From positions 1-46,674 of the forward strand of contig JBBQQR010000016.1 of the NCBI GenBank assembly GCA_038215615.1: a DNA stretch of 46,674 bases, in the 5' to 3' direction. Of the stretch, positions 31,872 through 41,354 are shown one piece after another. The position numbers were made by a program, and so were the translations under genes. The notes beneath the pieces are model-generated. The model was given only the letters and a program-made list of their open reading frames with translations, ran no database searches and was not told the origin of the DNA. Every line of letters begins with the position of its first letter. The stretch's first letter is position 1. The DNA is from Vulcanimicrobiales bacterium. GTDB taxonomy: Bacteria > Vulcanimicrobiota > Vulcanimicrobiia > Vulcanimicrobiales > Vulcanimicrobiaceae.

Positions 31872-34346
31872 GTGAAACTTCGGCTCCGAGAAGAATCGCG
31901 TAGCGAAGAGGTTGCGCGGCTGCGCGCCGTGCTTCCGGCATCGGCGCAGTCCGCGCTGATCTCCTATCGCACGCGAACGGGCGCGTTGCTGCGCGTAGCC
32001 GGAGTTGCCGCGGGCGCTTACGACCGCGAGCACCATGACGTCTTCGTGCCACCGAGCGATGAGCCGCGCGAGCTCTCGCTTGAAGTCGAGCTTGAGGCGC
32101 TGCCGACAAACGGCTTGCCGTCAGGGCCCGGAATCATATGGTGGCTGCTCAACGCGCTGTCGCACCAATCTCCCCAGCGCTTTGTCATCGTGAGCCTGTC
32201 GAACGACGCCGAGCAGCGCGTCGAAGACGCGCAAGCCGAGGGGGAAAATCCGTCTCTCCCCCTCATCGGGCACAGCCACCTCGATGTGGCGTGGTTATGG
32301 ACGTACGAGCAGACGCGGCGCAAAGCGCAGCGGACGTTTGCAATTGCGTGCGATCTCTTCGAGCGCGATCCGCAGTTCGTGTTTGCGCAAAGCCAGCCGC
32401 AACTCTACCGTTTCGTGGAAGAAGACGATCCGCAACTGTTCGAGCACGTCTGCGAAGAAGTGCGCGCGGGCCGGTTCGACCCGGATATAGCAGCGCTTTG
32501 GGTTGAAAGCGACTGTAATATTCCCTCCGGCGAATCGCTGTTGCGTCAAATGCTGTTCGCGCACGACTATTGCACGCAGCGTTTAGGCGCGACGCCCTCG
32601 ATTGCGTGGCTGCCCGACTCGTTCGGTTTTGCGAACACCCTTCCGCAGCTGCTGGCGCATGCCGGCATTCCGTTTTTCGCGACGACGAAGCTGCAATGGA
32701 ACGATACGACACGTTTCCCGTATCCGCAATTCGTGTGGCGCGGCCCGGACGGAAGCAGCGTGACGAGCGCATTGATCCAGTCTTACGATGGCGGTCCTTA
32801 TCCGTGGCGAGTGAAGACCGCGCGCGAGCGGCACGAGCCGCTGGTCCTTGGATACGGCGACGGGGGCGGTGGCGTCACTCCCAAGATGCTCGCGCAAGCG
32901 CCGGCGATCGGCAGGTGGATCCATCCGCGCGAATGGTTCGACGGGCTCGCGAACCGCGGCGACGCGCTCCCGGTCTATTCGGGCGAGCTCTATTTGGAGT
33001 ACCATCGGGGCACGTACACGACGCACCACGACGTAAAGTTTTACAACGCGCTGCTGGAGCGCGCGCTGCTCGAAGCCGAGGAGCTCGTGGCGTGGTGTGA
33101 AGCCGTTCGCGCACCCGCCGCCGCCACGGCGCAGTTCGCGCAGCGCCTTCGCGCCGCGTGGGAAATCGTGCTGCGCAATCAATTCCACGACGTGCTCCCG
33201 GGCACTGCGATTGCAGATGTGTACCGCGATGCGCGGAGCGAATACGCGCAAGCCCAAGAACTGGTAGCGAGCGCGATCGCATCGGCGGAGTCGATGCTCC
33301 CGCGCACGGGCGTGCGCAGCGCCGCCGGGCCGTGCGCGCCTCGCGAAGACGCGACATCGTTTGTATTCGACAACGGCTTGGTGCGCGCGCGTGTGGGCGG
33401 CGACGGTGTCATCACCGAACTCGCCGCGTCCGGCGGCCGGAACGTAGCCGTTGAAGCCAACGTGCTCGCGCTGTACCGCGATCGGCCGCGCCAATGGGAA
33501 GCGTGGAACATCGACGACGGCTATCAGCGAACGCTACGCCGCGTCTCTGCGTTTGAGGCGCGCGTCGCCGGTGACGGGCTCAAGCTTGAGTACGATTTCG
33601 ACGGGTCGCCCGGCATGATGCGCGTCGAGCTGCGCGAAGGCGAGCCGTTTCTACGCGTCGAGCTCGACGTCGACTGGCATACTCGCCGCACGCTGCTTCG
33701 CGTCGAAAGCCGTTTCGCCGTCGAGACGAATGAGGTGACCTACGGATCTCCGCACGGCACGATCGTGCGCAGTGCGCTGCGCGATACACCCGAGAGGCGC
33801 GCGAAGTTCGAAGTTCCGGGCCAGCGCTTTGCCGCCGTGCGCGACATCCGCGCTGAAGGCGCGGCAATCTTTGCGCTGGACACGTATGGCTGGAGCGCGC
33901 TTTCGAAAGGGAGCGAAATCGCGATAGGGCATTCGCTGCTGCGCGGAACTGTTTGGCCGGATCCGCAAGCCGACATCGGTTCGCATCGCTTCAGCTATGC
34001 GTTCGCGCCGCTGGGTTCTGCGAGCACCGGTGCTTTAGAACGTGCGTGGCTGCGGTTCGCGCACGAACCGCGCGTCCGTTTGTTTACGACACCAGACGAG
34101 AACGTGCTGGTCGTCGCTTGCAAACCGGCCGAAGATCGCGACGGCGCGATCGTGCGGGTGCGCGAATGTAACGGCGAAGCGCGGCCGGTTCGTTTGCGAT
34201 CGGGCGCGCGGCTAGCTTCCGCGCATGCGGTCGATGCGCTCGAGCGTCCCGTGGAGAGCGCCGTCTCAATTGAAAGCGAAACGCTGGTCTTCGAATTGAA
34301 AGCGTTCGAGCTGCGATCGTTTCGCGTGCGGTTCGGCCGTGCGTAA
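31872..34346 (+). CDS. Glycoside hydrolase family 38 alpha-mannosidase
   Basis: GHSHLDVAWLW, GESLLRQ, WLPDSFG, GYGDGGGG, GELYLEYHRG, NQFHDVLPG; start GTG 31872 inferred. Confidence 0.9.
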   Translation: MKLRLREESRSEEVARLRAVLPASAQSALISYRTRTGALLRVAGVAAGAYDREHHDVFVPPSDEPRELSLEVELEALPTNGLPSGPGIIWWLLNALSHQSPQRFVIVSLSNDAEQRVEDAQAEGENPSLPLIGHSHLDVAWLWTYEQTRRKAQRTFAIACDLFERDPQFVFAQSQPQLYRFVEEDDPQLFEHVCEEVRAGRFDPDIAALWVESDCNIPSGESLLRQMLFAHDYCTQRLGATPSIAWLPDSFGFANTLPQLLAHAGIPFFATTKLQWNDTTRFPYPQFVWRGPDGSSVTSALIQSYDGGPYPWRVKTARERHEPLVLGYGDGGGGVTPKMLAQAPAIGRWIHPREWFDGLANRGDALPVYSGELYLEYHRGTYTTHHDVKFYNALLERALLEAEELVAWCEAVRAPAAATAQFAQRLRAAWEIVLRNQFHDVLPGTAIADVYRDARSEYAQAQELVASAIASAESMLPRTGVRSAAGPCAPREDATSFVFDNGLVRARVGGDGVITELAASGGRNVAVEANVLALYRDRPRQWEAWNIDDGYQRTLRRVSAFEARVAGDGLKLEYDFDGSPGMMRVELREGEPFLRVELDVDWHTRRTLLRVESRFAVETNEVTYGSPHGTIVRSALRDTPERRAKFEVPGQRFAAVRDIRAEGAAIFALDTYGWSALSKGSEIAIGHSLLRGTVWPDPQADIGSHRFSYAFAPLGSASTGALERAWLRFAHEPRVRLFTTPDENVLVVACKPAEDRDGAIVRVRECNGEARPVRLRSGARLASAHAVDALERPVESAVSIESETLVFELKAFELRSFRVRFGRA
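32183..32243 (+). repeat. REP-like palindromic element, in-frame in the GH38 gene
   Basis: TGTCATCGTGAGCCTGTCGAACGA followed by CCGAGCAGCG-CGTC-GAA-GACG-CGCAAGCCGAGGGG; matches the ligA copy. Confidence 0.8.
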
Positions 34347-39284: not shown

Positions 39285-41354
39285 ATGACTGCAACAAACG
39301 CTGCCGAGCGCGCGCGCGAACTGCGTCGTTCGATCGAAGAAGCAAATCACCGCTACTACGTTTTGGACGATCCGCAACTCTCGGACGCGGATTACGATGA
39401 ATTGCTGCGCGAGCTGCTGGACCTGGAAGACCGCTATCCGGAGCTGCGCACGCCCGATTCGCCAACCCAGCGCGTCGGCGCGCCGGCCGCCGAGCGCTTC
39501 GCTCCCTACGAACATCGCGTACCTATGCTCAGTTTGGCAAATGCCACCAACTCCGGCGAGCTGCGGGCGTTCGACGAGCGCGTGCGCAAGCTCGCGGGCG
39601 GCGCGCAATCCTACGTTGTCGAGCTGAAGATCGATGGGCTTGCGACGTCACTGCAGTACCGCGACGGCGCGCTCGAACGCGGCGGCACGCGTGGGGACGG
39701 CCGCGTCGGCGAAGAGGTCACGCCCAACCTGCGAACGATTTCTTCGATTCCTTTACGCTTGCGTCAGGCCGATGAGCTGGGACCCGAGATCGAAGTGCGC
39801 GGCGAGGTCTATCTCAAGAAGAGCGACTTCGCGAAGTTAAATAGCGCGCGCGAGAAAGCCGGCGTGGCCGTTTTTGCCAACCCGCGCAACGCCGCGTCGG
39901 GCGGAGTGCGTCAATTGGATCCGCGCCTAACGGCGGAACGCAAACTCTCGTTTTACGCTTACTCGCTCAACAGTGTCATCCTGAGCTTGTCCCTTCGACC
40001 CGGCTCAGGACAGGCTTCGGACCCCGAGCAGCGACCGGAACGGTCGCAAGCCGAGGGGATCAACACCCAATGGCAGAGCTTGCAAATGCTGAAAAAGCTC
40101 GGCCTTCCCGTTAATCCCCACATTGCGCGTTGCCCGGGCATAGATGAGGTGATCGCGTACTGCGAACAGTGGGAAGCCAAACGCGAAGAGCTCGATTACG
40201 AGATCGACGGCGTGGTTGTGAAAGTCGACGATTTGGCGACGCAAGTACGCCTCGGCGCGGCCGGCCGCGACCCGCGCTGGGCGATCGCTTTCAAGTTTAA
40301 GCCGCGCGAAGCGCGTACCAAACTGCTGGACATCGTGATTACCGTTGGGCGGACCGGAACGCTCAATCCCAACGCTGTTCTCGAACCGGTGCAGCTCGGC
40401 GGCGTGACCGTTCGCAACGCGACGCTGCACAACGAGGAATACATCGCGAGCAACGACATCCGGCCGGGCGACGTCGTGCTCGTGACGCGCGCCGGGGATG
40501 TGATCCCGCGCGTCGTCGGACCGGTCTTGAGCGAACGCAAAGGCAAGCTGCGCCGCTTCGTCATGCCGGCCCGCTGCCCGGTCTGCGGCGCGGACGTCGA
40601 TCATCCCGAAGGCGAAGCGATGTCGCGCTGCACGAACGCGACCTGTCCGGCGCAAGTGCTCGAGCGGGTTCGCCATTTTTGCTCGCGCGGCGCGATGGAC
40701 ATCGAGGGCATCGGCGACGTTATGGCCCAACAACTGACCGAACTCGGGCTCGTGAGCGAGATCGCCGACATCTATGCGCTCGACGCGGGGAAGCTCGCAG
40801 CCGTGCCGCGTACCGGCAAAAAAACGATTGCCAATCTGCTGCGCAACATCGAGACGTCAAAGTCGCGCGGCCTCGCCCGCCTTCTCGCCGGGCTAGGGAT
40901 TCGTTTTGTTGGAACGCAGACGGCGCAAATTCTCGCCGATGATTTCGGAACGATAGACGCGATCGCCGCCGGGAGCGCGGAAGAGCTGCAACGCAGCGAA
41001 GGCATCGGACCGGAAGTCGCGAGCAGCGTCTCGCTCTTCTTTGCCCAACGGGCCAACCGCGCGATGATCGTACGGTTGCGCAAGGCCGGCGTGTCCATGA
41101 CGGCTCCCAAGCGGTCGCGCGCAACCAGCGGAAAGTTCGCCGGGAAGACGTTCGTTTTGACGGGCACGCTGCCAAACATGACACGCGATGAAGCTGCCGA
41201 TCTCATCACGCAGGCCGGCGGCAAAGTCACAAGTTCGGTCAGCAAGAAGACCGATTACGTCGTCGCGGGTTCCGATCCGGGAAGCAAGTACGACAAAGCC
41301 CAAACGCTCGGCGTACCGATCCTCGACGAGCAGGGTTTACGGAAGTTGGCTTAG
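39285..41354 (+). CDS. ligA: NAD-dependent DNA ligase
   Basis: [34 protein letters not shown] zinc finger, BRCT TGTL...SVSKKT. Confidence 0.98.
39974..40058 (+). repeat. Composite REP-like element, in-frame in ligA
   Basis: TGTCATCCTGAGCTTGT, then CCCTTCGACCCGGCTCAGGACAGGCT, then CCCCGAGCAGCG-ACCG-GAA-CGGT-CGCAAGCCGAGGGG. Confidence 0.82.

What the first reader, a model, noticed from the sequence alone, without database searches (positions are those of the whole stretch)
32183..40058. A family of structured palindromic elements has inserted in-frame into three unrelated proteins (GH38, UvrA, LigA)
Seen: related modules of the form stem-GAGC-variable-GYCGA-stem at 32183-32243, 36662-36686 (reverse orientation) and 39974-40058. 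All lie in coding sequence and preserve the frame, and they are read in shared frames: [49 protein letters not shown]. They fall in a GH38 inter-domain linker and in what I recall as variable loops of UvrA and the LigA adenylation domain. I found no intergenic copy and no transposase or nuclease in the window. Established: Rickettsia palindromic elements and (C/T)GTC-tagged REP classes can enter ORFs. Inference: a trans-mobilised, protein-colonising repeat family adding peptide modules even to essential repair enzymes; three copies in 8 kb suggest many genome-wide.
Basis: partly seen in the sequence, partly recalled or inferred. Interest (0 to 1): 0.85.

Follow-up and report, generated by a model that had tools for sequence, protein, structure and literature searches.

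The report
Nuclease-linked hairpins remodelling protein loops
Short hairpin repeats lie at about 70 places in this genome, more than 20 of them in frame inside genes such as DNA ligase; they flank a tiny nuclease gene that likely spreads them, and the same protein loops gain, reshuffle and lose them between related species, a variant of a known kind of repeat.

Summary
The three elements are real, in frame, and belong to a TGTCA-tagged hairpin family with about 72 loci in the genome: 34 intergenic, 10 at gene edges, 28 in ORFs. Distant orthologues lack them. In congeners the same loops carry different arrays, orientations and frames, and copies are also lost. Elements overwrite a few host codons; I saw no target duplication. 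Frame is kept by selection: length changes are multiples of 3 in 19 of 19 internal sites but in 11 of 33 non-coding sites. A small GIY-YIG gene (frameshifted here, intact in relatives) sits between inverted copies and co-occurs with the repeats (16 of 18 repeat-rich genomes, 2 of 23 repeat-poor). This works like the published Ssn/SRM and CGTC-REP systems, where intragenic copies in uvrA and ligase genes are already reported. It fails the published SRM pattern, and the nuclease looks UPF0213-type, so it is a sister variant. This scan found the family before, in this genome and many others. Added here: arrays grow on the tag side, repeats bound local inversions, and one chromosome zone holds dense copies nearly all on the inferred lagging strand. 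Cutting and spreading are inferred, not shown.

The parts
32183..32243 (+). Composite element in the GH38 linker: TGTCA tag (32183-32187), short module (32188-32206, stem TCGT/ACGA), long untagged module (32207-32243, inner 7-bp hairpin). 20 codons, net about +7 aa over empty orthologues.
36662..36685 (-). Single module with the variant GCYTG tag, reverse to uvrA; encodes PSAGSGQA at the end of the UvrB-interaction domain; net +6 aa over the empty congeners.
39974..40058 (+). Composite element in the LigA adenylation domain: tag and 5' arm (39974-39990), nested reverse copy, long module (40022-40058). 28 codons, net +22 aa.
39991..40019 (-). GCCTG-tagged reverse copy nested in the loop of the first ligA module; 29 nt stand where G006 has 5 nt (net +24 nt).
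31929..34346 (+). Host gene: GH38 alpha-mannosidase (start uncertain; frame open from 31746).
35937..38921 (+). Host gene: uvrA, intact.
39285..41354 (+). Host gene: NAD-dependent DNA ligase ligA, intact, the only match in the genome; KxDG, EVRGE and DGVVVK motifs present.

Best explanation
These are gene-less hairpin repeats of a family that also flanks a small GIY-YIG nuclease gene, and that nuclease likely spreads and remodels them by cutting single-stranded DNA next to the TGTCA tag, after which host repair would paste or copy the hairpin. Shown: the repeat family, its co-varying stems, the repeat-nuclease-repeat cassette, their co-occurrence, overwriting of a few host codons, turnover at the same loops, arrays extended on the tag side, inversions bounded by repeats. 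Inferred by analogy with SsnA: the protein cuts single-stranded DNA a few bases 5' of the tag on the tagged strand only. Inferred, my own model: freed tagged fragments, from replication gaps or from transforming DNA, anneal by short homologies to exposed template and are built in, which replaces host bases and leaves no target duplication; repeated cutting and repair at resident copies gives tandem growth, nesting, loss and inversion. Inferred from length statistics: selection keeps only frame-preserving events in tolerant loops, linkers and tails, so the peptides are tolerated by-products.
For: Cassette: GIY-YIG gene at G000:C9 between inverted composite copies. 14 of 18 best loci of this clade in relatives have tags on both sides, 17 of 18 on at least one; 0 of 12 housekeeping GIY-YIG loci have a tag within 300 nt. 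In a wider set 46 of 70 proteins of the clade have a tag on at least one side, many in Bacteroidota. Co-occurrence: clade match at E<1e-13 in 16 of 18 genomes with 17 or more tags and 2 of 23 with 3 or fewer. The cassette sits in 13 different neighbourhoods among 18 loci. Turnover: ligA loop filled with six different arrays in 6 of 9 congeners; empty G002 nests inside the filled clade (support 99), so it is a loss. uvrA site filled in 4 of 10 congeners in both orientations; GH38 site in 9 of 10, in two frames. Frame filter: 19 of 19 internal sites differ from G008 by multiples of 3 (AtpD left out, its window ran past the gene) against 11 of 33 intergenic or edge sites. Polarity: of 42 tag arrays, 33 run partial-to-complete, 5 complete-complete, 4 partial-partial, none complete-to-partial. 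Inversions at the ileS locus are bounded by repeats. LigA insert is a low-confidence coil between a strand and a helix in an otherwise confident model (mean pLDDT 82.6). ComEC and a ComEA-like gene are present. SsnA cuts ssDNA upstream of its hairpin, on one strand only (PMC11893778).
Against: No cleavage or mobilisation was tested, and SsnA itself is not shown to spread its repeats. The gene is one base short in G000 (same in an X1 contig) and broken at 4 of 18 best loci. G020 (72% complete) and G021 carry repeats with no clade match; G012 and G016 have the gene and few copies of this pattern. Relatives are not independent. 24 of 70 clade proteins have no tag nearby. Junctions were compared at about 84% identity, so a short target duplication could be erased, and one site (C29:14352) has a 6-nt direct repeat that overlaps the tag. 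The polarity test is anchored on the tag; my control for orphan 3' halves was confounded by nested and variant modules. Outside one zone there is no strand bias (22 of 45 and 18 of 38), which a simple lagging-strand model does not predict. Gene calls are from my own caller.
Confidence: 0.55

Rival explanations
1. The nuclease binds and cuts these repeats but is a domesticated restriction-like guard on incoming single-stranded DNA; the repeats spread and change by host recombination, gene conversion and slippage alone.
For: SsnA lowers integration of NTS-bearing DNA in Neisseria (PMC11893778). Competence genes are present. Repeats persist where the gene is broken. Gene conversion among copies explains module swaps.
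Against: The cassette moves between loci (13 neighbourhoods) and is often broken, unlike a domesticated gene. Repeats are nearly absent where the clade is absent. Slippage alone does not predict growth on the tag side only.
Confidence: 0.22
2. They are MITE-like elements moved by an unrecognised transposase, and the GIY-YIG gene is cargo between their ends.
For: Head-to-head pairs with and without the gene exist (G003 at ileS, many in G018). Di Nocera left the mobiliser of CGTC repeats open.
Against: Most copies are single-ended. No Y1/RAYT or DUF559 gene in a 100% complete genome; other transposase families were not searched. Sites show replacement and no evident target duplication.
Confidence: 0.12
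3. The repeats are kept for a function as RNA structures or as peptide modules in the host proteins.
For: Stems co-vary; many copies lie near gene 3' ends; the same loops stay filled across most of the genus; the GA/GA core recalls kink-turn-like motifs (recalled, untested).
Against: No significant link to gene direction (16 of 25 and 29 of 51 co-directional intergenic sites). Peptides differ in frame, length and orientation at one site and are lost. No Rfam family.
Confidence: 0.08

Closest known systems
Ssn nucleases with NTS/SRM repeats (SsnA of Neisseria meningitidis, CDD cd10448; Chenal et al. 2025, PMC11893778; read: parts 1-2 of 11, Discussion, method passages, term search of 12 of 14 supplements)
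   Same: Single-domain GIY-YIG of about 95 aa between inverted hairpin repeats; oriented repeats with a YGTCA tag 5' of the stem; many dispersed copies; gene and repeat co-occur.
   Different: The published SRM pattern matches none of the 81 census loci. The core here is a 4-bp stem, GA/GA, then a short or hairpin-bearing loop, in head-to-tail composites. The protein is closest to UPF0213 structures and lies outside the SsnA-like branch. NTS are 2% intragenic in Neisseria; here 28 of 72 are in ORFs.
CGTC-tagged REPs, including Rickettsia RPE-4/RPE-6 (Di Nocera et al. 2013, PMC3733652; read: parts 1-4 of 8, term search of 4 supplements)
   Same: TGTC is a listed tag variant; copies occur in frame inside genes, among them uvrA, uvrB, tRNA synthetases, helicases and (GTAG type, O. 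terrae) a DNA ligase; no dedicated transposase.
   Different: Their stems are 8-9 bp with 4-5 nt loops and a CCA tail, mostly head-to-head dimers. No nuclease was linked, and no turnover at one site was followed.
Rickettsia RPE-1 (from Di Nocera's text and recall; primary papers not read)
   Same: Palindromic DNA translated as extra peptide in working proteins.
   Different: RPE-1 is longer and of another sequence; here small modules are rebuilt in place and a candidate mobiliser is present.
REP-RAYT (REPtrons) and IS200/IS605 (PMC3733652; PMC3971601, passages read)
   Same: Enzyme gene flanked by its hairpin targets; single-stranded substrates; replication-linked orientation bias is known for IS200/IS605.
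   Different: No HUH/Y1 enzyme here; the strand bias here is confined to one zone.

Membership tests
Ssn/SRM | Single-domain GIY-YIG under 150 aa | tested here: met
   96 aa in G006-G008, PF01541 only; frameshifted in G000
Ssn/SRM | Gene flanked 5' and 3' by its hairpin repeats | tested here: met
   14 of 18 loci both sides; 0 of 12 control loci
Ssn/SRM | Repeats fit the published degenerate SRM pattern | tested here: not met
   13 genome matches, none on a census locus (pattern)
Ssn/SRM | Protein belongs to CDD cd10448 | tested here: inconclusive
   CDD and SsnA itself were not on hand. Best structures are UPF0213 proteins (E 4.6e-13). Seven SsnA-like proteins (named so from a recalled motif; 2 have SRM on both sides) form a separate branch, support 100, length 1.0; both groups stand apart from YazA-like proteins, support 98 (quick tree, 100 columns). 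Points to a sister group.
Ssn/SRM | Site-specific cleavage of ssDNA upstream of the hairpin | not testable with these tools
   Tyr, Tyr and Glu at positions like SsnA's Y6, Y17, E64 are present by eye; no assay
CGTC-tagged REP | CGTC/TGTC tag at one end | tested here: met
   TGTC on most copies; a GCCTG variant on others
CGTC-tagged REP | 8-9 bp stem, 4-5 nt loop, CCA tail | tested here: not met
   4-bp outer stem, GA/GA, variable inner part, no CCA tail
CGTC-tagged REP | Mostly extragenic, some in frame in genes | tested here: met
   44 of 72 intergenic or at gene edges, 28 in ORFs
REP-RAYT | GTAG tag and a flanked Y1 transposase | tested here: not met
   No GTAG tag; PF01797 not found
MITE | Terminal inverted repeats and target-site duplication | tested here: inconclusive
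   Most copies single-ended; replacement junctions seen, but only at about 84% identity

The most novel reading that the evidence does not exclude
A widespread sister family of Ssn (UPF0213-type GIY-YIG with TGTCA-GAGC hairpins, in Vulcanimicrobiota, Bacteroidota and beyond) spreads its targets without any transposase: the nuclease frees short single-stranded hairpins that the host builds into the lagging strand like natural recombineering oligos. This overwrites and continually rewrites loops of essential proteins, flips neighbouring genes, and fills one chromosome zone of long-lived single-stranded DNA with copies of one polarity.
Probability: 0.3. Interest if true: 0.8.

Novelty: new variant of a known kind. 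Interest (0 to 1): 0.5.

Why it matters
How CGTC-type repeats multiply without a transposase has been open since 2013, and the Ssn paper only raises the idea that the nuclease cassette is mobile. This genus offers intact and broken nucleases, filled, remodelled and emptied sites in essential genes, and three footprints (tag-side growth, replacement junctions, a one-strand zone) that a reconstitution can test. It also widens the pool of candidate site-specific ssDNA nucleases beyond the published motif, and it warns annotators that VILSLSKD-, CHPELVEG- and PSTGSG-like peptides are repeat read-through, not conserved protein motifs. The basic fact of in-frame palindromes in uvrA and ligase genes is not new.

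Tried and rejected
Rfam: no family. RAYT and DUF559 not found in G000. The second small GIY-YIG gene (L002) has no repeats and groups with YazA-like proteins. NCBIfam gave nothing for either. Single-sequence LigA fold was unusable (pLDDT 38.9); redone with an alignment. No RNA holder listed, so expression of the peptides is untested. A local polar skew halo around each element (lead from e1-9820602) was tested and not seen: skew is flat over 5 kb each side and regional. A genome-wide lagging-strand bias was rejected: none outside the zone; G003 and G018 show no clear zone in the listed matches; density against skew is significant in G000 (rho 0.42) but not G008 (rho 0.13). No coupling protein PF10412 in G000 or G008; Pfam of 100 zone and zone-border genes showed no relaxase. 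The careful nuclease tree and one-clade test did not finish. One search stopped on a script error after printing the rows used. Paper searches found no description of this repeat with this nuclease clade or of the zone; the library lacks most subscription papers, and 2 of 14 Ssn supplements were not searched. About 0.18 Mb of G008 was not examined. G036 is unpublished; it enters only the 41-genome tallies (no tags, no nuclease match).
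Full report
Observation. The unit is a TGTCA tag (or a GCCTG variant), a 4-bp stem, GAG(C/T), a short or hairpin-bearing loop, G(C/T)CGA and the closing stem; a second, untagged module often follows head to tail. 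The ligA copy is nested: against G006, 5 nt in the first loop are replaced by a 29-nt reverse copy. Of 90 tagged short modules in G000 and G008, picked without regard to stem letters, 80 have a fully paired stem in five types. Folding energies of the window copies alone are unremarkable except for ligA. X1 contigs bridge the uvrA and ligA inserts unchanged.

Census. The window is contig C16 of a 2.21-Mb, 100% complete genome. The nearest named records for the linked nuclease are Vulcanimicrobiota. A motif census gave 81 loci against 4-11 in shuffled genomes; I dropped 9 as chance, leaving 72: 34 intergenic, 10 at gene edges, 28 in ORFs. Of the 28, 21 are internal and 7 near termini; two more internal sites come. 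Hosts include FtsK, IleS, a class II tRNA synthetase, ATP synthase beta, PGK, NuoG, RF3, Lhr, ComEA and xanthine dehydrogenase subunits. With about 92% of DNA coding (my own gene caller), the repeats strongly favour non-coding DNA. Three internal copies in 8 kb is not a significant cluster.

Orthologues. The ligA loop is empty in all 21 rows outside the genus and holds six different arrays in 6 of 9 congeners (30 loci examined). G002, empty, nests within the filled clade, so it lost the element. The uvrA site is filled in 4 of 10 congeners, three reverse and one forward; the GH38 site in 9 of 10, in two frames, and by related repeats in 2 of 14 more distant rows. Net gains are smaller than the elements (GH38 +7 aa for 20 codons, LigA +22 for 28, UvrA +6 for 8-9), so host codons were overwritten. 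Against G008 (about 84% identity), 26 in-ORF sites had an orthologue: 14 scored filled and 12 empty, one of the 12 being filled by eye. Length differences are multiples of 3 at 19 of 19 internal sites and at 11 of 33 non-coding or edge sites, the chance rate. Frame is therefore filtered by selection. In the LigA model the insert is a low-confidence coil between a strand and a helix, at a short loop of E. coli LigA; the uvrA site is also a variable loop.

The nuclease. Of three GIY-YIG matches in G000, one small gene lies between inverted composite copies. It is one base short near codon 68, also in an X1 contig, and intact in G006-G008. Tags flank both sides at 14 of 18 loci of this clade and lie within 300 nt of none of 12 housekeeping GIY-YIG loci. 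The clade is found in 16 of 18 repeat-rich and 2 of 23 repeat-poor genomes (kin are not independent). Its 18 loci fall into 13 neighbourhoods, and at ileS the cassette and a neighbouring gene are inverted between repeats in different species. Homologues in Bacteroidota and other phyla carry like repeats: 46 of 70 on at least one side, 24 on neither. No RAYT or DUF559 was found.

Mechanistic footprints. Of 42 tag arrays, 33 have truncated 5' halves stacked in front of a complete copy and none the reverse; the test is tag-anchored and its control was imperfect. SsnA cuts just upstream of its tag on one strand (PMC11893778), which is where these arrays grow. In strongly skewed DNA, tags lie on the C-rich strand at 49 of 49 loci in G008 and 16 of 17 in G000, whatever the gene direction, at about four times the density; elsewhere there is no bias (22 of 45, 18 of 38). 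The threshold was chosen after seeing the data, the loci fall in one zone, and the two genomes share sites, so this is one observation, not 66. The skew is regional, not a halo. G024 (40 listed forward tags against 1 reverse at 2.16-2.26 Mb) and G015 (all listed matches forward at 2.47-2.65 Mb) have similar zones, 0.2-0.45 Mb from the best tyrosine-recombinase match; dnaA positions put the tags on the lagging strand there, by inference. G003 and G018 show no clear zone. The cause is unknown.

Model. The nuclease likely cuts single-stranded DNA 5' of the tag. Host annealing and repair would then build freed hairpins into new places, overwriting a few bases, and rebuild resident copies. Selection keeps frame-preserving events in tolerant loops. 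The link between repeat and gene is well supported (about 0.9); the causal model is at 0.55. Rivals are a domesticated nuclease with host-driven spread (0.22), an unseen transposase (0.12) and selected RNA or peptide function (0.08).

Comparison. It works like Ssn/SRM, but the published SRM pattern misses every census locus, the best solved relatives are UPF0213 proteins, and SsnA-like proteins form a separate long branch. I call it a sister variant, not a member. Di Nocera et al. already list intragenic REPs in uvrA, uvrB, ligase and tRNA synthetase genes. A 2026 preprint (10.64898/2026.09.22.753630, passages) uses SsnA repeats only as a benchmark. Eight paper searches found no account of this repeat-nuclease pair or the zone. 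Earlier notes of this scan describe such inserts in at least 48 genomes and this family twice in this genome; these are unchecked AI notes, and my reading preceded them.

Verdict. Real, and a new variant of a known kind. Interest 0.5: the headline is known, but the turnover series, the out-of-definition nuclease clade and the footprints make the open question of how these repeats spread testable.

Noticed in passing
G008 C8:55000-180000 and C7 (L188-L194, L156, L185, L186); G000 C24, C28, C29, C37, C48: A zone of about 180-230 kb where silent-site GC skew rises steadily to several times the genome mean and drops near tRNA-Val/Asp genes; repeats are dense there and almost all on one strand. Rich in accessory genes; no relaxase or coupling protein found. 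Cause unexplained.
   Followed up: partly
L344-L353 (3' of ileS): The nuclease cassette and a neighbouring small gene occur in three arrangements among congeners, with inversion ends at repeats; G003 has a gene-less head-to-head pair there.
   Followed up: partly
G000:C4:38972-39093 (L137): An Lhr helicase carries a 41-aa insert of three 21-nt tag units plus a full composite; G008 lacks it (123 nt shorter).
   Followed up: partly
G000:C17:43021-43047: A repeat appears to sit inside a tRNA-like gene next to a second tRNA; G008 lacks 57 nt there.
   Followed up: no
L102, L103, L108, L110: The downstream reverse repeat supplies the last codons and the stop codon of the nuclease gene itself; several other genes in G000 also end in a repeat.
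   Followed up: no
window 29762-38921: uvrB and uvrA are separated by the GH38 gene, a HAD hydrolase and a membrane protein; GH125 and GH130 mannoside genes lie at 10644-17087.
   Followed up: no
window 17939-19460: Two tandem paralogous ORFs (248 and 261 aa) without a Pfam match lie between meaB and methylmalonyl-CoA mutase.
   Followed up: no
G000:C28:1598-7546: A type I restriction-modification-like cluster at the edge of the skewed zone, absent from the G008 DNA examined.
   Followed up: no
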